A stretch of 64,000 nucleotides of DNA. Source: Octopus vulgaris. Lineage: Eukaryota. The stretch covers positions 200,756,001-200,820,000 of the forward strand of contig OX597814.1 in NCBI GenBank assembly GCA_951406725.2, read 5' to 3'. The translations under genes were made by a program, and so were the position numbers. Below, in pieces: positions 6,396-64,000 of this stretch. Positions within the stretch are counted from its first letter, which is position 1, and every line of letters starts with the position of its first letter. A model generated the notes under the pieces. That model searched no databases. It saw nothing but the letters and a program-made list of their open reading frames with translations, and was not told the origin of the DNA.

Positions 6396-6614
6396 AAGAC
6401 TGCTGGAAAAAAAGCAAATAAATAGAATAGAATAAAATGAACGTGAATAAATAGGGGATACTGATAATGCAGGTACCATACACATTCCTACACACACCAA
6501 ATATTGACATACACAGGGATATACGTATGTGCAAATAAAGACACATACAGCAGGAACACAAAATGGCAGCTCATTAGGACAGAGAGACACAAAAAAGAAA
6601 GAAAAAGCAAAAGA

Positions 6615-6654
6615 CCACTGATGAGGTCACAGTAGTGTGACGAAAGAACTCTAA
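6615..6654 (+). ncRNA. Minimal type-I hammerhead ribozyme motif (C3:G8, extra G, helix I decayed)
   Basis: CTGATGA(6618-6624)-G-GTCACA-GTAG-TGTGAC-GAAA-GAAC-TC. Helix II is a perfect 6 bp. Helix I is only partly paired (CCA/TAA). Confidence 0.7.
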
Positions 6655-7044
6655 AATATAATTAATATGAAATAAAGCTGAACCAAGTGAGCACCGAATA
6701 AATAGTGTGTGTGTTTTCATTGGCTAAACTGGCAACATGACCATCCCCAAATAGCAATATCTGTCTCAACACATGAGTTCACATCAAGAATCTTGCAAAA
6801 TGATTACATAAACATATATATATGATGTTATATATATATATATCTCATCATCATCATTATCGTTTTATGTCCGCTTTCCATGCTGGCATGGGTTGGACTG
6901 TTTGACAGAGGACTGGTGAGCCAGACTCTGCACCAGGCTCCAATCTGATCTGCCAGAGTTTCTGCAGCTGGATGCCCTTCCTAACACCAACCACTCCGAG
7001 AGTGTAGTGGGTGCTTTTATGTGCCACTGGCATGAGGACCAATT

Positions 7045-8390: not shown

Positions 8391-8975
8391 ATGGAAACAG
8401 TGAATAATATAACCCAAACCCTCTGTTCTCACTATGCCAAACCTATGGCCTCCAAATACCTGATCCACCAGAACTCAGCTATTGCGGACAATGCCAAATT
8501 CAATATATTGATGGCAGACCTCATCAGAGTAATGAGAAATGTGTCCCACATGTGCAACCCTACAGAGTTAAAGAGACACATAGAACACTTCATCCACCAC
8601 ATGCAGTTGTCCGGATACAGCCATAGGGAAAGGATCAGAGTATATAAAGGAGCCATGACGGAATTTGAAACTATCATATATAAGGATAGGAGTGGGATTT
8701 GTCCACTCTGGAATACTTTATATATATGGAATACCAGTGAAAGGACTAAGAAGAAAATAGGGAAGGCCAACTCTTGGTATGGTAGCCACAAATACCAGAG
8801 TATCATGTTTGTCAACACCACCACTAGAGGCAAACTGGTGTGCTGCTTTAGAAGGGCTCCAGACAAGCTTAAGCTGAAAAGTAAGGTTGTAGAAAGGCCA
8901 GGTAACCCTATAAAATCCCTAATCAGTAGAACCTACCCGTTTAATAGAACCCCCTGTACTGATAGGAACTGGTGA
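8391..8975 (+). pseudogene. Penelope-like element ORF fragment (RT thumb/C-terminal region and linker)
   Basis: 194-aa ORF with YAKPMASKYLIHQNSA...KFNIL..DLIRVMRNVS...MQLSGYS...KVVERPG..IKSLI...YPF...C. This matches the PLE pattern Y.KP.....H..S....K..I....R..RN.S....SGY followed by a Cys linker. Confidence 0.75.
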
Positions 8976-20950: not shown

Positions 20951-21213
20951 ATGCTCCACAAGGGGCAAAAAGGATTAAGAAGAATTTTAATACATTCTTT
21001 TCTTATTTAAGACAGTAGAGTGATATGAGGGAGATTTAACAACTATTTCTAGCAGGATACACTCTTGTCCATTTGCTTTATCACCATATAACAAATAATA
21101 CGTTCATCTAAATTAATGATATTAAATGTGTAAAAGTATTAATTACGATGGCAAGAATTGGACTCAGAATGAAAAGGGTTGCAATGGAATACTGCAAAAC
21201 ATTTTGATCACTG

Positions 21214-21600
21214 AAGTATATCTGCTACCCAAATGTGGCTAACCTTTAAGGGTTGATGCTACTGTTGCTTATAGCCCCAAGAAGACACCTCCTCCACCTG
21301 GGTATTGACACACTATCTGTGCCCTATCAGTATTTGCAAAGGGGAGTCATTGTTACAATCTCCAGCCTGACGTGATACACATGGACCCGAGTTTCTGGGT
21401 ATTGACCCGTCATCATGATGACTTCCCTTTGCAAATACTGATTGGGTACAGGTAGTGTGTCAATAGCCAGCTGGAGGAGGTATCTTCCTGGGGCTACAAG
21501 CTACAGTAGCATCAACCCTTAAGGGCTAACCACATTTAAGTGGCAAATATACTTCACGATGTCGTGCAGCTACTGTTTATACCTCGCTCAGAGATTTATT
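21214..21600. mobile_element. Non-coding PLE-pLTR/retrozyme-like insertion with inverted arms and 13-bp TSD
   Basis: ATTTTGATCACTG at 21201-21213 and 21601-21613. Inverted arms of about 139 bp (21212-21350 / 21418-21556). An HHR motif lies in the spacer. Confidence 0.8.
21380..21415 (-). ncRNA. 5'-truncated minimal hammerhead motif
   Basis: Minus strand: TGATGA-C-GGGT-CAAT-ACCC-A-GAAA-CTCGGG-TC-CATG. The helix I 5' strand and C3 are lost at the inversion junction. Confidence 0.65.
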
Positions 21601-21625
21601 ATTTTGATCACTGTTTGACCTATTC

Positions 21626-25187: not shown

Positions 25188-25345
25188 TTACTGAAATTTT
25201 ATAATTCTTCTTGTCCATTTCCTTGCATTCAGCCTTGTGTTATAAAAAGAGAAGAAATTTAGAGTGGTTTGTAGACATTTGACATCTACTTTTAGCATAT
25301 TGGCATTGGCCCTCCAGCGCTTTTAATTATAATTATATTTTTATA

Positions 25346-25996
25346 GCATTAATAAGTCTCTGAACGAGATATAAACAGTAACCACTCGACAACGTAAAGT
25401 GTACTAGCCATCTGAATGTGGCTAGCCACTGGGGGTGGGGTGTTACTGACGCTTTTAGCCCCAGGAGATCAACGTCACCAGCTGACCTTAGACACAATTT
25501 CAGTGCCCTTGTGTTATTTGCAAAGGGAGGTCATCCTCCATCGAAAACCTAAGTGATACATACGGACTATAGTTTCGAGGTAATTGCCTCTCGTCAACGC
25601 ATGGTAAACACCGGTTTTCGATGAAGGAGACCTTTGCAAATAATAATATTTAACGTTTTTCACAGCAACCACAGTCACTGATTTAGAAAAACTGTCTGAA
25701 AACATTAATAAATCTCTGAACGAGATATAAACAGTAACCGCTCGACAACGTAAAGTGTACTAGCCATCTGAATGTGGCTAGCGTCAGTAACACCCCACCC
25801 CCAGGGGCTAGCCACATTCAGATGGCTAGTACACTTTATGTTGTCGAACGGTTACTGTTTATATCTCGTTCAGAGATTTATTAATGCTTCCAGACAGCTT
25901 TTCTAAATCAGTGACGTTGATCTCCTGGGGCTAAAAGCATCAGTAACACCCCACCCCCAGTGGCTAGCCACATTCAGATGGCTAGTACACTTTACG
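25346..25996. mobile_element. Retrozyme-like/PLE-pLTR insertion: 356-bp unit in partial tandem plus two inverted segments, 13-bp TSD
   Basis: 25347-25426 repeats at 25703-25782. Segments 25781-25915 and 25912-25996 are reverse complements of parts of the unit. TTATATTTTTATA occurs at 25333-25345 and 25997-26009. Confidence 0.85.
25559..25603 (-). ncRNA. Minimal type-I hammerhead ribozyme (U3.G8)
   Basis: Minus strand: CATGCG-TTGACGA-GAGG-CAATTA-CCTC-GAA-A-CTATAG-T-C-CGTATG. 6-bp helix I (one G.U), 4-bp helix II, palindromic helix III, GUC site. Confidence 0.85.
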
Positions 25997-26129
25997 TTAT
26001 ATTTTTATAATTATGCACTTAAAAATTAATTTTACCAATATGGTGGTTTTTATACGCCAACCACTGATATAATCATTTTAATGATTATATCCTCAATTTA
26101 TACGTACACACACACACAAACACATGTAC

Positions 26130-35115: not shown

Positions 35116-35344
35116 GGGGTTTACAATATAAAGGAAAGATCCAAGGAAATAATTACAAGGTAGCAAAATGTTGCTTAAAATCCGGGATAGTAAGTCGTAT
35201 TTAGTAGAAAATAGGAAAATTGAATAAGGAAACGAACTCTTGAGATGTTGTTAAATCATTTCTGTCTTGATATAAATGGTTTAGCAACATCCCAAGAGTT
35301 CATTTCATTATTCAATTTTCCTATATATACATGCATATATATGC

Positions 35345-36164: not shown

Positions 36165-37789
36165 TTGCAGTCAAAATGTTCAGAACGGCATTGTTTTTGT
36201 CAGAAAAGTAGGTATAAGTTTTTATCAAAGTTGTTTTATATTCTATAATTTTCACAGACAATAAATACAATATTAATTGGTATTGTCTGAGATTTTGGTG
36301 TAATTTGAGAGGATAATACAAAAGTTATGGATGATATAGTGATTTACTGCAAAACCTATGGTGGACAAAATGATCAGAACGGTTGAAAAAATAACAAAAT
36401 AATCAAAAAGTGACAGAGAATGCTGGAATTATTTCATATTTAGTGTGAAGCCCTTTAGCTTCAATCAAAGTTTGACATTTTCGACTGCATGGGGAAATTA
36501 AATTTTCAATTTCTTGCTGGGGGATCTTATTCCATTCTTCCTGAAGGGTATTCCATAATTACTCGGTTGTTTTAGGATTTCTGGCTTTCAAACGTTCTCC
36601 TAGAATATTCCACACATTTTCAATAGGATTGAGGTCTGGGTTTTGAGCAGGCCAATCCATAACAATAACCTTTTCAGCCTTGAGGAAGTTCATGACCACC
36701 TTAGCCTTGTAACATGGGGCATTGTCCTGCATGAATATGGGTGGTCGCTTAGTTGAATTTCTCAGCACAGGCTAGACATGATCTTTTACAAGTTGTTTAT
36801 AAACTCCTGCATTTACCTTTCCATATAATCGCAGCAAAGGGCCCACAACATCTCCAGATATCATCTCCCAAACCATGACACTTCCTCCACTGAATTTAAC
36901 ATTAATCTTAAGGCATTTAGGTGACAATTTTTCACCTGCTTTTCGACGAACGTACCTTTTCCCATCTGAGCCAAATAACATAGACTTAGATTCATCACTG
37001 AAATGCACCGTTTGCCATTTTTCTTGAGACCACAACACATGTTCGGTTGCAAAGGGAAGACAACACTTTTTATTCTTGGAGCTGATCAGTGGCTTCACTT
37101 CAGGTGCTCTTGCTTGTAGGTCATGTTCAACTAAAGGACGAGACACAGTTTTTCGAGATAAAGTTTTCTACAGTACAATGCTCATTTCCCGAAAAAAAGC
37201 AGCAGCAGTTTTAAATCTGTCCTTTTTAACCAACTTTACCATAGCACGACCTTCTCTCTTGGTCGTTTTCCTTGGCCTACCTGTAAACTTTCTTGCTTCA
37301 CATGAACCACAATCATTGTAGACCTTAAGAATACCGTGAACAACACTTTTTGACTTGTTAACAATCTTTGCAATAGACCTAATACTTAAATTATCCTTCT
37401 TTCAAAGCTTAATAATCTGCTGACGAATTGGTAACGGAGTAAGTGGCATTATATTAACAAAGTACACTGCAGATATTCTTACTAATGTTTAGTAAACGAA
37501 CTGTCACGTAAACAAATTCAAAACATTAGAGTTCGACAGTTAAATATACTAAAACATGGAGTAAAAGCAACCGTTCTGATCATTTTGGCCGGCATGGGTT
37601 TTGCAGTAAATCACTAAATCATCCATAACTTTTGTATTATCCTCTCAAATTACACCAAAATCTCAGACAATAACAAATAATATTGTATTTATTGTCTGTG
37701 AAAATTATAGAATATAAAACAACTTTAATAAAAACTTATACCTACTTTTTCTGACGAAAACAATGCCGTTCTGAACCTTTTGGCCACAA

Positions 37790-40814: not shown

Positions 40815-42359
40815 CATATATATATTGGTGCTTATCACTATATATTAACTAGATTCCCTGTGACCCATTGGGTCACCAGGAAACTCTGAGTTTTCCTGCA
40901 ACAAAATTTTGTTTTGTGGGTTGGAAAGATTTGTCTGCTATTTCTTGCAAGCCCTACTACCATGTAACAGGTATTTCAGGTCCTTTATTGCAAATCGCTG
41001 TTATGTGGCAGCAGGGCGAGCTAGAAATAGCAGCCAAATCTTTGGGGGGAAGATGCGTTGAATGCACTAGAAAAAAACTTTTTCACACAGAGGTTACAAA
41101 CAGGTCTCTTACGAAATATCTACCATATTTTTCATCTTGAAAACTACTTTACCGATTTAAGCAAAACTTGTTTCATTCAATTCGTATTAACATTTCAGGA
41201 TAAACTTAATTCATGGTATTTTTCCATTATGCACCAGTTTTGCTGAGTAATATTACATGCAGGCAAGCAAGATTGAAACTGACTTTTAATGTATTATAGA
41301 CAACCACTCTTTGAGTAGTTGGCACTAGGAAGGACATCAAGCTGTAGAAACCATGCCAAATCAGATTGGAACCTAGTACAGCCCTCCCCACCTGCTTACC
41401 AGTTTTCAGCCAAACTGTTAAAACCATGCCAGCATAGAAAACGAATATTAAATGAAGATGATGATGATTATATTATACACACACACACACACACACACAC
41501 ACATATGAGGAGGCCCAGGACAATTGTAGAAGACACTTGCCCAAAGTGCCATGCAGTGGGACTGAACCTGAAACTACATGGTTGGAAAGCAAATTTCTTG
41601 ATCACACAGTCATGTCTATGCTTATGTATGATAATTAAAGATACTAATGATTACCACAACACTACCAGTAATTATGAGTGTAACACTCATTTTAGTAGGT
41701 TAGCACTTAAATTAAAGAACAGGTGGTAGCTTCAAAGTGTTTACTTAAAGACAACCAAAAAAGGATTTTTTCATATTATTGTATTTGTATTTGGTCTAAT
41801 TTCAGCTGAAATTTATCAAAACGAAGATAATCCTTCTAATCAGAATAGACATTTTAGATATTGAAGCAATTTTCAGCTTGAAATTAAGGATGGAAAGATA
41901 ATTGCGCTAGCAAGAAAACTAAACATGTTGCCAAAGTCTTGCATGACAAGGAAACCTCAAGAGTCTTGGTCAATTTAAATATATGCATGTATTCCAGTGT
42001 GAGCATATCTTTGTATGCAAGTGTGTGTAAATCAACCTGCATTGAATATTAAAGTATATTTTGCACAAATATTGATTAAGAATGAGTGTTTGCATGTGAA
42101 GGTGTGTGGTCTAGAGGCTATGACATTGGGTTCATTAGCATAAAGGCCTGATTTCTATTTCCAGACCAGGCAGTGCATTGTGTCTTTGTGTAAACCACTT
42201 TGATTTTGGTTGTTCTGATATACTCAACTGTAAAACAGTACCAGCCTAGTGCTGACACATCCCCTTCTCTACCCATATATTCCACTTGCTCAAAGAATGT
42301 GAGGGCTGAAAAGGTGTCCATGTCTACTTGCATCACATAGGCACCTAAACAATTAGTAA

Positions 42360-49085: not shown

Positions 49086-49214
49086 AAAATTCAACAAAAC
49101 CTGTTTCTCTGAGTTTCCCGTTGCCATTCATCGGACAGTTTTTGCTAGATTCTAGCAAAAACTGTCCGATGAATGGCAACGGGAAACTCAGAGTAACAGG
49201 ATTTGTTGAATTTT
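49086..49214. repeat. 64-bp-arm palindrome containing two divergent hammerhead motifs
   Basis: Centre T at 49150. Plus strand 49162-49199: CTGT-CCGATGA-ATGGCAACGG-GAA-A-CTCAGAG-T-A-ACAG. Mirror copy on the minus strand at 49101-49138. Confidence 0.85.
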
Positions 49215-49560
49215 TATTCATATTACTCTACCACTGGTATTTGAGTACTCTTTTTTCCACCTTGTTTCACATTTATGTATTTACTCCGGTATATATATAT
49301 ATATATATATATATAGTTCTGTGGGCATCATATATATATATATACATATATGATGCCCACAGAACACTCTGTAATGAACATGGTGATAGGCTGGGCATCC
49401 AGCCCATAAAGCTAAGCCGAATGACACACATATGAAGCACCACTCTGTGGGAGCAGTGGCTGTGATGATTCATAAAAGGATGATGATGATGATGATGATG
49501 ATGGTAATCATCCGGATCATGAAGATCATGATCACGATCAAGACAATGATGATGATGACA

Positions 49561-57742: not shown

Positions 57743-57749
<7 letters not shown>

Positions 57750-57935
57750 AACTTATAAGTAAGGGCTAAAGAAAATTATTTCAATGCCAATATGCTGATA
57801 ACAAACTATTAAATCGTCAATTTCCACCTGTAGTGGGTATATAATAATATGTGGAAATTGACGATTTAATAGTTTGTTATCAGCATATTGGCATTGAAAT
57901 AATTTTCTTTAGCCCTTACTTATAAGTTGTTTATA
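57743..57935. repeat. Perfect 85-bp inverted repeat with 23-nt spacer, adjacent to (TA)n
   Basis: 57743-57827 is the reverse complement of 57851-57935. Confidence 0.9.
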
Positions 57936-58089: not shown

Positions 58090-58090
<1 letters not shown>

Positions 58091-58222
58091 TAATTTATTA
58101 TATAGAAGGAGCTTCTACAGGACTAGTACTGTTTCATTCAAGAGAGATCTTCAGGTCCTGAAGATCTCTCTTGAATGAAACAGTACTAGTCCTGTAGAAG
58201 CTCCTTCTATATAATAAATTAA
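58090..58222. repeat. Perfect 66-bp-arm palindrome with hammerhead-like core words
   Basis: Centre T at 58156. The right arm begins C-CTGAAGA-TCTCTCTTGAAT-GAAA-CAGTACTAG-TC. Confidence 0.85.
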
Positions 58223-59015
58223 TTTTACTCTGCTATGTATTGAGTACCTTACTTACTGTGGTTAACCCCGAATCAACCCGGGACCTACATATATATATAT
58301 ATATATATATTTACCATAGTGAATTATTTGTTTTTAGAGAGATAATTGGACAGCATTCCAATATCATCACAAATGGAATAATGAGCAAATCTCTTACTCT
58401 ATTAAAACAGTTTTCCTGATGAGCTAATAAGGGAGTCCTTTTGTGGTCACTCAATCTGCTAGAAATAATACTTCAAATTCCTTCGGTGCATACATTGCCA
58501 TCTTAAAAAAGGATAAACAGGATAATGTCATCCTGGGTTCCCAGTGCATGGGTAAAAAGATGGAATAATAACCTCTGAAATGCTTTTGATCATAAATCTT
58601 CTTGATTTGGTCTGACCTGGGGCTAAACATCAACACCAAGAACAACTATTGTCATAAAAAGCAAACCACAACCTATTAAGCCTAGTACTCATACCATTGG
58701 TCTCTTCTGCCAAACCGCTAAGTTACGGGGTCGTAAACACACCAGCATCGGTCATCACCACCATCATCGTCATCATCAACAACATCATCATCATTGCATG
58801 GCTTAAATGCTATTTACTGAAACGGATTGTCTATAACTGGATGCTCTTCCTGTCACCAACTCTCACCTTGTTTCCAAGCATGTTAATATTCTCCCATGGC
58901 TGGAAATGCTTTTGCAGATGACTGGAATGATGGATACTGTTTGTATGATGGGGACATCCATTTACAATGAATGCATAATGCTGGGGGAAGGACACACATA
59001 CACACACACACACAT

Positions 59016-60325: not shown

Positions 60326-61069
60326 TAGTATTCCTTATTATTATTTGCAAAACTTTACTCTTACTTATAATAAGAAAGAAAAACTATAGAATATAGAATT
60401 AAGAAGCTCCAGTATTTTTCTCTCTCCATGGAGTTCTAAATCATATTTCTTTTGTCTGTGTCACTCTATTTGTTAAATTCTTACATTCTTACAACCAAAA
60501 CAACATTTTAATGTCTTCAATACAATTTTTCACAATGCTGAGAACACCCGCCAGCTGAGAACCATTTGTTGTATATAATTTTAGCTTATCCACGAAGAGG
60601 AGGTGACAGACAAACTCTGTCCTCATGTAATACTTTAAAACTACTTATTCTCTAAGCCAAAGGGTAACTCGAAAGAAACAAAAGAGAGACTAAAAGTACA
60701 GTCAAGTTGAAATATTCAAGGTGATAGTTAAGTGAGACTATGGTATTGTTAAAGACTGCAAGAATTATCTGGCAATTCTTTTTTTGTTGTTTTAAGAATC
60801 TCATTCATACTACGTCATCAATTTTTTTAAACTTCAGGACTTTGATGAATCAATCATAAAGTTCTCTTTGTTACAAATTTAAATATATGATGAGTTGTTC
60901 TTCCATAATTTTCTCGTCACCCAACACTTCTCCGTTAATAAGGAACTAGCCAATTGTTCTGCAGGACATGAGCATGCAGTTTCCATTCTCTAGCTCAGTG
61001 GTTCTCAACTGGGGTCCATGTAAGATTTTCTTGTTAAAATTTATCTGTAATTAATTATTTTTTAAAATT

Positions 61070-61822
61070 CTTTTACTTATTTCAGTCATTTGGCTGTGGC
61101 CATGCTGGAACAATGTTTTAGTTGAACAAATCGACCACTGGACTTATTCTTTGTAAGCCTAGTACTTATTCTATTGGTCTCTTTTGCTGAACCGCTAAGT
61201 TACAGGGACAGGAACACACTAGCATCGGTTGTCATTCAATATTCAATAGGCGTAGTGTGTATGACAAACACACACACAAACACACACAAACAAACACACA
61301 CACACACACACGCACACACACACACACACACATATATGATGGCCTTCTTTCAGTTTCTGTCTACCAAACCCAGAACCATGTGGTTGGTAGGCAAGCTACT
61401 TACCACACAGCCACTTCTTTGCTATAATCTTTTACTCTTTTACTCCTTTTTTTCTCTTTATTTGTTTCAGTCATTTGATTGTGGCCATGCTGGAGCACCA
61501 CCTTTAGTCGAACAAATGGACCCCAGGACTCATTCTTATTAAGCCTAGTACTCATACAATTGGTCTCTTCTGCCAAACTGCTAAGTTACGGGGTCGTAAA
61601 CACACCAGCATCGGTCATCAAGTGAAGTTGGGGGAATACACACACACACACATATATATATACAACAGGCTTCTTTCAGTTTCCTTCTACCAAATCCACT
61701 CACAAGGCTTTGGTCGGCCTGAGGCTATAGTAGAAGACACTTGCCCAAGGTGCCATGCAGTGGGACTGAACCCAGAACCATGTGGTTGGGGAGCAAGCTA
61801 CTTTCCACACAGCTGCTCCTGC
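61070..61822 (-). mobile_element. Two tandem CORE-like SINEs (family A)
   Basis: Copies at 61070-61420 (internally deleted) and 61430-61822. Confidence 0.85.
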
Positions 61823-62216
61823 AATTGGCAAGACATTTTAACAATGTTGTATACAGTTCCTAATAATATTTAATTACAAGAATTTAAAATGAATTTTTTA
61901 AACATCATATGGTTAGGAGGGTCCATTCAAGTACAACGGGAATAAAAAAAAAAGATGTTTGCAAAAAACTGATCTGAGTTAATTATTAGTATGGAAAATA
62001 TCATTACTTTGGTTACTGCTTTTAGGCAAGATGTTTTAATCAGGGACAGAGTTTATTGTTGTTGTTTTTCTATGTGTGAGGTATTTATTTTACAAATGTC
62101 TCATTTTTGTAAGGACAGTGTGAAACTGGTGGTTGATTTGACTGAAAATGGCTAAATACAATCTCAGAATCTACATAGACATTTTGGAATTAATTTGGAA
62201 TTATTCAAAATAATTT

Positions 62217-62478
62217 TGTTGTGTCTGGGGAGAGTCATTCTCTTTTAGTGCCTTATTATTTAACACACTCACCAGTACAATTTCCACTTATCTCCTTTAT
62301 TTTTCTAAAATTTTTGTTGCGTCTTGCAACCTTTTCAATAGTCTTGAGAAACTACTGAAAAGGTTGCAAGACACAATGAAAATTTTAGAAAATAAAAATA
62401 AGAAATAAGTGGAAATTTTACTGGTGAGTGTGTTAAATAATAAGGCATTAAAAGGAATGACTCTCCCCAGACACAACA
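62217..62478. mobile_element. Head-to-head inverted pLTR-like element with two hammerhead motifs (U3:A8 variant)
   Basis: Inverted arms of about 125 bp. Minus 62305-62341: CTA-TTGAAAA-G-GTTGC-AAGAC-GCAAC-AAA-A-AT-T-T-TAG. Plus 62352-62388: CTA-CTGAAAA-G-GTTGC-AAGAC-ACAAT-GAA-A-AT-T-T-TAG. Confidence 0.8.
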
Positions 62479-63174
62479 GATTATGCTTCAACACACAAAC
62501 TCATATAAAGAATCTTGCAAACCAAATCCAAAAACGAAACAAAATAATTTTGCTTTTATTAAATTTCTTGCTAAGGCAGTGAGCTGGCAGAGTCATTACT
62601 GTGCTGGAAAAATTGCTTGGTGGTATTTCTTCTAACTTTATATTCTGAGTTCAAATGCAGTAGGAGTTGACTTTGTCTTTCATTCTTTCAGGATTGATGA
62701 AAGAAGTACCACTTGATCATTAGGGTCGATGTAAGCAACTATTGCCCTCCTACCAAGTTGCAGGCCTTGAACCTATAATAGAAAGGATTATTATTATTAT
62801 TATTGGCAGAGTCATTAGCACATTGGGAAAAATGCTTAGCAGCACCTTCCCCTACAATGGTTGGCCTTGTACCAAAATTTGAAACCATTATTAATTTTCT
62901 TGCTCAGACTGATACCACTTGAAGAACCATCATTGTCTTTTTCTGATGCTCTTGGAGTGAACAGAGATGATGCCATCAGTATATCAATAAAAGTTGGCAA
63001 ACTGAGCAAAATCATAAGAGCATCAGGGAAAATGCTTAGCAGCGTTTGTTTTGGCTTTTTATATTTTGTATCGGAATTGTGCTGAGATTAACTTTACCAT
63101 TCATCCTTTCAGAATTGATAAGAATTGATAAGAAAGTACCAGTGAAGTACTGGGAATGATGTAATTGACTAATA

Positions 63175-63380
63175 CCTATTTCTTTACTACCCACAAGGGG
63201 CTAAACACAGAGAGGACAAACATGGACAGACAAACGGATTAAGTCGATTATATCGATCCAGTGCGTAACTGGTACTTAATTTGTCGACCTCAGTGTAATT
63301 TGAACTCAGAACGTAACGGCAGATGAAATATGGCTAAGTATTTCACCCGGCATGCTAACGTTTCTGCTAGCTCGCTGCCT
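63175..63380 (-). mobile_element. Meta-like SINE (family B)
   Basis: Same family as 21805-22037. Confidence 0.8.
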
Positions 63381-63880
63381 TCATTGACAAATACCTTCTT
63401 GCTAAAAATTGCTGGCCTGGGGTCAAATTTTGAAACAATTATTAATTTTCTATGCATTTAAATGTTGTAATTATATTTAGAATACTGTATTTTGCATTTT
63501 TCAAAACTGCATGTGCAATACTTGTCAGCTTATTTGATTATATTTTATTAAGTTTCTATATTTTTCTAAGCAGAAATAATATCTGCATTGAATATAAATA
63601 TGAAAGTTCACTGTTTATATATTTTAAATGTGAATTTTGTTTGTTCTTTTTTTTTTTCTTTCTACATTTTTGAACATTTTCCAACTAACTAACGTTTAGA
63701 ATAAATTTAACACAACACCACTGTTTACATTCATCTTCTCTTACCAAACCAGCAGATGGTGTCATCATTATTTTTGTCACTCTGGTCAAAAGTCTAAGAG
63801 TGAGTTAAGTCTCTACTCTTTTATGCTAAAATTCCTGTAAACAAGTTATATTCATGGCTCCTTCAATTTTTCCCCTTTAA

Positions 63881-64000
63881 CTCTTTTGTTACCGTATTTA
63901 TTTTGAGATGCTCTGGGTTTCTTTCAATTACATTAAATATAACATAGAATTTAGTAAAATAACTTAGTTATCATTAAGCTAGTGTTAGGAGCATAATTTG
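63881..64000. mobile_element. piggyBac-type MITE, truncated by window end
   Basis: TTAA|CTCTTTTGTTACC, similar to 29748-29870. Confidence 0.75.

What the first reader, a model, noticed from the sequence alone, without database searches (positions are those of the whole stretch)
62217..62535. U3:A8 hammerhead pair in a head-to-head inverted element
Seen: combining both arms gives CTA-TTGAAAA-G-GTTGC-AAGAC-GCAAC-GAA-A-AT-T-T-TAG. Arm differences are mostly CpG-type decay. The inversion centre is about 5 nt upstream of helix I. Inference: ancestral U3:A8 core with bulged G and an AATT dimer helix III. The recurring inversion just 5' of the HHR (49150, 58156, 62345) points to a defined RNA end or template-switch site.
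Basis: partly seen in the sequence, partly recalled or inferred. Interest (0 to 1): 0.7.

Follow-up and report, generated by a model that had tools for sequence, protein, structure and literature searches.

The report
Mirror-image octopus retroelement stump with hammerhead
This is a small, decayed, mirror-image insertion of what is likely a Penelope-type jumping gene in an octopus genome; its family carries a predicted self-cutting RNA motif with a paired-letter swap already described in flatworm elements, so it is a new example of a known kind.

Summary
The inverted element is real: 62219-62539, one insertion inside a 13-bp direct repeat. A sister element at 6618 has canonical C3:G8 with compensatory helix II changes. 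U3:A8, the bulge, AAUU helix III, U17 and opposite-strand pairs are all published for Penelope-like elements, as are head-to-head palindromic junctions. The two motifs lie on opposite strands and a read-through RNA folds into one long hairpin, so they are not a working pair. The clustering of inversion points at helix I holds: 3 of 8 fold-backs in the window, and 5 of 6 shown strand-switch joints in the family. The commonest centre matches a native 4-bp mini-palindrome, which suggests cDNA stop and snap-back. Not shown: cleavage, a linked RT-endonuclease ORF, expression. Ordinary class, with one modest mechanistic lead.

The parts
62206..62218 (+). left copy of 13-bp target-site duplication (AT-rich, near-palindromic)
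   Evidence: (D12)
62219..62343 (-). left (inverted, shorter) arm: hammerhead, spacer and first 20 nt of the putative ORF
62305..62341 (-). left hammerhead motif: helix I 3 bp, core U3:A8, bulged G, helix II 5 bp, AAUU helix III; G12 changed to A at 62315 (CpG decay)
62340..62354 (.). inversion centre; the commonest family form lacks 4 of these letters and is a stem closed by a 2-nt loop; coincides with an inferred native 4-bp mini-palindrome overlapping helix I
   Evidence: tables 4, 5c, 7
62352..62388 (+). right hammerhead motif: private U3-to-C change at 62355, CpG decay at 62373 and 62377, intact GAAA 62378-62381, AATT 62381-62384, predicted cut after 62385
62389..62456 (+). AT-rich spacer between hammerhead and start codon (likely 5' UTR part of the pseudo-LTR)
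   Evidence: same layout in sister element
62457..62539 (+). first 27 codons of a putative ORF, open to the family's 3' end
   Evidence: related subfamily table 7 shows 4 silent and 3 conservative changes in 10 codons (read by eye)
62477..62539 (+). 61-63-nt extension present on the right arm only ('tail'-like asymmetry)
62540..62552 (+). right copy of 13-bp target-site duplication

Best explanation
The element is a decayed 321-bp head-to-head insertion inside a 13-bp target duplication, likely the stump of a high-copy octopus Penelope-like retrotransposon, whose family carries a U3:A8 minimal type I hammerhead motif that is predicted, not shown, to cut RNA. Shown: structure, boundaries, family letters, breakage of both motifs here. 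Inferred steps: (1) the element's RT-endonuclease nicks AT-rich DNA and starts reverse transcription about 80 nt into its own ORF (family 3' end 62539; internal initiation is shown for the anole element in PMC11167929); (2) the cDNA runs back through the uncut hammerhead and stops at or a few bases 5' of helix I, most likely at the start of the template RNA or at a structural block; (3) the cDNA end folds back on a native 4-bp mini-palindrome (AGTC...GACT) and is copied back, or is joined to a second, more truncated cDNA, giving the mirror arm; (4) the short arm is joined to the target through a few matching bases, and the target is duplicated. In the intact element the hammerhead would need a second same-strand copy or protein help; the two motifs here cannot serve each other. 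About 0.85 for 'PLE stump', about 0.5 for the stop-and-snap-back step.
For: TSD exactly at both ends and family 3' end at 62539 followed by TA repeats. Hammerhead, then about 100 nt, then ATG and open frame to the end, the pLTR layout of PMC3846280 and PMC11167929. Sister element at 6618-6810 with the same layout and canonical core: best of 1684 window tiles, 0 of 500 shuffles as high; 3 of 9 pairs change on both sides, including 3:8. Motif matches published PLE motifs: same 7-nt U3:A8 core with 3-bp helix I and U17 in S. mansoni family 4, same GAAA-AUUU topology in Crassostrea gigas. Centre recurrence: one centre form holds 39% and 41% of depth there in X2 and X3 (15 and 12 contigs); 5 of the 6 opposite-strand joints shown have an end at 62351-62358 with the other end scattered (table 5). 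An unrelated PLE-type RT fragment in the window is 72% identical to an Octopus vulgaris protein.
Against: No RT-endonuclease ORF could be tied to this family: searches with the N-terminal peptide were empty and it does not match P0001. The asymmetry is 61-63 nt, not the 30-40-nt tail of PMC8557442. The TSD (13 bp) is longer than the 8-10 bp cases in PMC3846280. Depth across the centre is only 0.9-3.1% of depth at core position 3, so this centre is a minority form, or is under-aligned. The native upstream sequence rests on a loose-end consensus with agreement 0.55 (64 contigs, X10 only) and on 3 of 12 shown rows of table 5c. Covariation rests on 3 sequences and is not significant (34 of 500 shuffles as high). 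33 joints and 67 between-letter rows were not shown. Helix I and helix III have positive duplex energies (+1.2, +2.2 kcal/mol).
Confidence: 0.8

Rival explanations
1. The centre is inherited, not made anew: a master copy already had an inverted 5' pseudo-LTR, and internal initiation at its first pLTR-ORF junction on a read-through transcript copies direct arm, centre and part of the inverted arm in one pass.
For: One centre form dominates (39-41% of depth at the centre in X2 and X3). Internal initiation on uncut RNA is shown in vitro (PMC11167929). Inverted 5' pLTRs are common in full copies.
Against: At least five other centre forms are listed (table 4), and joints pair an arm ending at 62351-62358 with partners starting at 62402-62490 (table 5). 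The template would be a very stable hairpin. Both arms here share two letters that differ from the family majority (62422, 62439), which fits one template but does not separate the models.
Confidence: 0.25
2. Twin priming: a dimeric protein primes two cDNAs from the two target strands, at two start sites, and their self-complementary 3' ends anneal at the mini-palindrome.
For: The anole protein nicks and extends both strands and starts at two sites (PMC11167929). It explains the TSD and the one-sided extension.
Against: No second pile of ends near 62476-62478 is among the loose ends shown (table 7; 847 rows not shown). The asymmetry differs among the three window cases (about 61, 68 and 76 nt to the TSD or next TA run).
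Confidence: 0.2
3. Self-priming on an antisense transcript, as proposed by Arkhipova et al. 2013, makes the head-to-head palindrome.
For: Published interpretation of palindromes at inverted PLE junctions (PMC3846280 Discussion). A native palindrome at the junction fits it as well.
Against: It needs an antisense RNA that ends at this spot; nothing here shows one. A fold-back of the cDNA gives the same geometry from a sense template (inference).
Confidence: 0.1
4. The element is a MITE-like DNA transposon or a chance foldback, and the hammerhead is a coincidental look-alike in AT-rich sequence.
For: Short, non-coding over most of its length, inverted repeats, TSD; helices I and III are only 3-4 bp; descriptor shuffles give 1.3 hits per window (0.2 with helix I of 3 bp or more).
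Against: Ends are asymmetric by 61-63 nt; most family depth does not carry the centre; compensatory 3:8 and helix II changes against the sister element; coding-type changes after the ATG; exact match to published PLE motif architecture.
Confidence: 0.05

Closest known systems
Minimal type I hammerheads of metazoan Penelope-like elements (Cervera and de la Pena 2014, PMC4209133), esp. S. mansoni family 4 (Cercyon PLE) and the Crassostrea gigas PLE motif
   Same: U3-A8 core (about 1,300 hits in S. mansoni), bulge between 9 and 10.1, G10.1-C11.1, 3-bp helix I, loopless palindromic helix III, U17, pairs on opposite strands 100-700 bp apart.
   Different: No cephalopod row in the parts of their Fig. 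S3 and Table S1 that I read; U3:A8 combined with AAUU is not among those rows; here the opposite-strand motifs are only about 10 nt apart.
Insertion architecture of endonuclease-bearing PLEs (Arkhipova et al. 2013, PMC3846280; Craig et al. 2021, PMC8557442)
   Same: Head-to-head inverted 5'-truncated copy, palindrome at the junction, TSD, one-sided extension, pLTR holding the first codons, AT-rich target.
   Different: No ORF body here; extension 61-63 nt instead of 30-40; TSD 13 bp; those passages do not map the junction relative to the hammerhead.
Poseidon element of Anolis (Frangieh et al. 2024, PMC11167929)
   Same: Genomic 3' ends lie inside the ORF start, downstream of the hammerhead, so the copied RNA is uncut; AT-rich target.
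   Different: There the ORF starts inside the hammerhead and the core is C3:G8; here the ATG is 102 nt downstream of position 3.
Animal non-LTR retrozymes (bioRxiv 10.64898/2026.07.22.740005, passages)
   Same: Small, hammerhead-bearing, PLE-derived, non-autonomous.
   Different: Retrozymes are head-to-tail tandem units; this copy is a single head-to-head unit with an ORF start.

Membership tests
PLE minimal type I hammerhead | Core boxes with a Watson-Crick 3:8 pair, GAAA and UH (family level) | tested here: met
   U3 in 95-99% of depth, no row of 5% or more at 62356-62361 or 62378-62385
PLE minimal type I hammerhead | Intact core in this genomic copy | tested here: not met
   right arm C3 opposite A8; left arm A at position 12
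PLE minimal type I hammerhead | Bulged base after A9, G10.1-C11.1, helix II, short helix I | tested here: met
   left arm folds into helix I (3 bp) and helix II (5 bp), z -2.6, 3 of 200 shuffles as stable
PLE minimal type I hammerhead | Palindromic helix III suited to a dimer | tested here: met
   AAUU in both arms and family; the 4-bp duplex alone is unstable (+2.2 kcal/mol)
PLE minimal type I hammerhead | Covariation of the helices | tested here: inconclusive
   3 of 9 pairs change on both sides, 3 sequences only, 34 of 500 shuffles as high
PLE minimal type I hammerhead | Self-cleavage at the predicted site | not testable with these tools
   no assay; contigs cannot show RNA ends
Endonuclease-bearing Penelope-like element | Linked ORF with telomerase-like RT and GIY-YIG endonuclease | tested here: inconclusive
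   only 27 codons present; searches found no relative; no genome held
Endonuclease-bearing Penelope-like element | Pseudo-LTR with hammerhead followed by the first codons of the ORF | tested here: met
   coding-type changes in a related subfamily (table 7)
Endonuclease-bearing Penelope-like element | Inverted 5'-truncated partner, head to head, inside one TSD | tested here: met
Endonuclease-bearing Penelope-like element | 30-40-bp tail at one end | tested here: inconclusive
   one-sided extension present but 61-63 nt
Endonuclease-bearing Penelope-like element | AT-rich or microsatellite target | tested here: met
   loose ends behind 62539 are TA repeats in 4 of 4 runs; TSD is AT-rich
Non-LTR retrozyme | Head-to-tail tandem units with same-strand hammerheads | tested here: not met
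   no direct repeat of the unit in 61000-64000 or in the window
MITE / TIR DNA transposon | Symmetric terminal inverted repeats | tested here: not met
   right arm runs 61-63 nt past the mirror of the left end
Rfam hammerhead or microRNA families | Score at or above the gathering threshold | tested here: not met
   no hammerhead model among 137 matches; hairpin hits here 26-43 bits, all below gathering

The most novel reading that the evidence does not exclude
Across unrelated Penelope-like families, reverse transcription stops at the 5' edge of the hammerhead and a native mini-palindrome built into or beside helix I lets the cDNA prime its own second strand. This would explain head-to-head inversions from an ordinary sense template, without the antisense template proposed in 2013, and would give the hammerhead region a role in defining the cDNA end that does not need cleavage. 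A further hint, weak: 3 of 12 shown rows table 5c have a direct arm starting within 4 nt of the predicted cut site, which would be a genomic trace of cleavage in vivo.
Probability: 0.3. Interest if true: 0.5.

Novelty: new member of a known kind. Interest (0 to 1): 0.25.

Why it matters
The motif and the architecture are known, so the finding mainly adds an octopus family with a U3:A8 core and thousands of matching contigs per run. What could matter is the mapping of inversion points: how Penelope-like elements make their head-to-head arms and what the weak hammerhead is for are open in the papers read (PMC11167929, PMC3846280). A high-copy family with a preferred stop at helix I makes this countable in any octopus assembly and testable with the published in vitro system.

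Tried and rejected
No whole genome was held, so copy-by-copy mapping was not possible. An exact 26-nt pattern found 0 matches in viral, metagenome and prokaryote genome collections. Rfam found no hammerhead; its microRNA hits are generic hairpin matches below gathering. The N-terminal peptide found nothing (2 candidates, none scored; 0 hits; no usable hit; no match to P0001); these are weak negatives for 27-41 residues. The RT fragment at 8391-8972 belongs to another family and does not link to this one. No RNA holder was listed; X15 is only guessed to be RNA, so no claim on expression is made. The first pair count had misnumbered columns and was replaced. 'Functional cis dimer of the two motifs' was rejected on strand and folding. 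Lunse et al. on PLE hammerhead variants was not held; I saw only its title in a reference list, and it may already list this combination. Supplement file 1 of PMC4209133 was not searchable and part 3 of file 2 was not read. Searches for a published link between inversion points and the hammerhead gave only PMC3846280 and PMC8557442 as relevant; most subscription papers are not in the library. Earlier-finding look-ups by sequence, place and long word list were empty.

Full report
What is there. Self-comparison of the window finds a fold-back at 62217-62478, 87% identical over 266 columns, centred at 62347.5. The right arm continues to 62539. A 13-bp direct repeat sits at 62206-62218 and 62540-62552, with a chance of about 2e-7 at the exact place and 3e-4 over 40x40 offsets. 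The two arms therefore arrived as one insertion of 321 bp. They differ by 10 substitutions and 4 gap columns in 127 columns; 3 of the 10 are CpG decay. The host is an octopus or close relative: an RT fragment at 8391-8972 is 72% identical to an Octopus vulgaris protein.

The hammerhead. Reading outward from the centre, each arm has a 3-bp helix I, a 7-nt core, a bulged G, a 5-bp helix II with a 5-nt loop, the GAAA box, AAUU and U17. Neither arm is intact: the right arm has C3 opposite A8 and two weakened helix II pairs, and the left arm has U3:A8 but A at position 12. Rfam did not find it (no hammerhead model among 137 matches). I tested it by laying contigs of 4 of the 24 listed runs on 62330-62570, the right arm plus 18 nt of the left, at 80% likeness (16,292, 14,400, 7,061 and 1,949 contigs laid, from three coded organisms). 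Position 62355 reads T in 98.7, 95.3, 98.1 and 98.1% of summed depth; 62373 and 62377 read G and C in 71-93%; no other letter reaches 5% at 62356-62361 or 62378-62385. The family core is U3:A8 as proposed. Depth is no copy number, but the family is clearly abundant.

Is it a real motif? A sister element at 6618-6810 has a canonical C3:G8 core, the same order of parts and a similar ORF start, and is followed by a TA run at 6815. It is the best of 1684 window tiles and beats 500 of 500 shuffles. Against it, 3 of 9 pairs change on both sides (3:8 and two in helix II), but with three sequences this is not significant (34 of 500 shuffles as high). An ATG at 62457 opens a frame to the family's 3' end; a related subfamily seen as a loose end before 62487 differs by 4 silent and 3 conservative changes in 10 codons (read by eye). 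That is the pseudo-LTR layout of Penelope-like elements. The link to an RT-endonuclease ORF is not shown: searches found no relative of the short peptide.

The 'pair'. The two motifs are on opposite strands. A read-through RNA holds one sense and one antisense copy and folds into a single hairpin of -169 kcal/mol. They cannot form the same-strand dimer that minimal hammerheads need (PMC4209133). Helix I and helix III are unstable on their own (+1.2 and +2.2 kcal/mol), in line with the low or protein-dependent activity reported for such motifs.

The inversion point. In the window, 3 of 8 fold-backs have a relaxed hammerhead motif within 20 nt of the centre (P about 2e-4), at 7-9, 15-16 and 1-2 nt; they are three unrelated sequences, and 5 of 8 hammerhead-like motifs have no fold-back upstream. 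In the family, one centre form, 4 letters shorter than this copy, holds 39% and 41% of the depth there in X2 and X3 (15 and 12 contigs) and 24-26% in X10 and X15 (1 contig each); other forms exist. Of the 15 joints shown, 6 switch strand, and 5 of these 6 have one end at 62351-62358 while the other end lies at 62402-62490; 33 joints were not shown. Against this, depth across the centre is only 0.9-3.1% of depth at the core. The native upstream sequence, read from 64 loose ends in X10 (agreement 0.55) and 3 of 12 shown rows of table 5c, ends in a 4-bp stem with a 2-3-nt loop whose last two letters are the first two of helix I; the commonest centre is its complement. At 58156 the centre likewise falls in a small palindrome inside the predicted helix I. 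I infer that cDNA synthesis stops at or just 5' of helix I and that the end folds back or is joined to a second cDNA. Inheritance from a master copy, twin priming and antisense self-priming remain open. In D. virilis the intron's 3' end maps to the 5' end of helix I, so a splice site is another candidate for the stop.

Comparison with what is known. Cervera and de la Pena 2014 (PMC4209133; parts 1-2 of 4 of the text, parts 1-2 of 3 of supplement file 2) report the U3-A8 core in S. mansoni PLEs (about 1,300 hits), the bulge, palindromic helix III and opposite-strand pairs; their Fig. S3 has the same 7-nt core with 3-bp helix I and U17 in a Cercyon element, and the same GAAA-AUUU topology in an oyster element. 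Arkhipova et al. 2013 (PMC3846280; passages and Discussion) report head-to-head inverted pLTRs, junction palindromes, TSDs and self-priming. Craig et al. 2021 (PMC8557442; passages) call the inverted 5'-truncated copy typical. Frangieh et al. 2024 (PMC11167929; parts 1-2 of 4) show internal initiation, both-strand extension and insertion without cleavage. PMC13282606 (passages) lists 31 recently active Penelope-like families in O. vulgaris. Passages of PMC6765202, PMC2377424, PMC3884650 and bioRxiv 10.64898/2026.07.22.740005 gave background only. Searches found no paper mapping inversion points to the hammerhead; Lunse et al. was not held. Earlier AI notes from other genomes describe the same clustering; they are leads, not support.

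Verdict. Observation largely right, family consensus confirmed, novelty low. It is a new member of a known kind, interest 0.25. The one lead worth following is the preferred stop at the 5' edge of the hammerhead and its mini-palindrome.

Noticed in passing
window 6612-6814 (+): Decayed sister element with canonical C3:G8 hammerhead (core at 6618), covarying helix II, ATG at 6737 with a related N-terminal peptide, ending before a TA run; no inverted arm.
   Followed up: yes
window 49086-49290: Fold-back (96% over 129) between TA runs; both arms have C at core position 4, and the arms differ in the predicted cleavage triplet; centre 15-16 nt 5' of the core.
   Followed up: partly
window 58090-58290: Young fold-back (99% over 133) between TA runs; canonical core 1-2 nt from the centre, which lies inside the predicted helix I; helix II pairs poorly in both arms.
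   Followed up: partly
window 25134 (+), 31814 (+), 35586 (-), 25597 (-): Four more hammerhead-like motifs from the descriptor scan (6 hits against 1.3 in shuffles); none has a fold-back just upstream.
   Followed up: partly
window 21212-21556, 25345-25998, 57743-57935, 35211-35324, 40925-41043: Five fold-backs without a hammerhead core near the centre; 21212-21613 has a 13-bp direct repeat around it, and it resembles the nested inverted set at 25345-25998.
   Followed up: no
window 8391-8972 (+): Fragment of a PLE-type reverse transcriptase ORF, 72% identical to an Octopus vulgaris predicted protein (P0001); a different family from the finding.
   Followed up: partly
window 36775-37167 (-): Tc1/mariner-type transposase fragment (Pfam HTH_Tnp_Tc3_2, E 1e-9).
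   Followed up: no
table 5c, joints to 62388: Three shown rows have a direct arm that starts at about 62382-62386, next to the predicted cut site; a subfamily insertion at 62387 and short matching letters could also explain this.
   Followed up: no
window 62362-62377: Helix II closely resembles helix II of Drosophila Penelope hammerheads in Fig. S3 of PMC4209133; homology or coincidence not tested.
   Followed up: no
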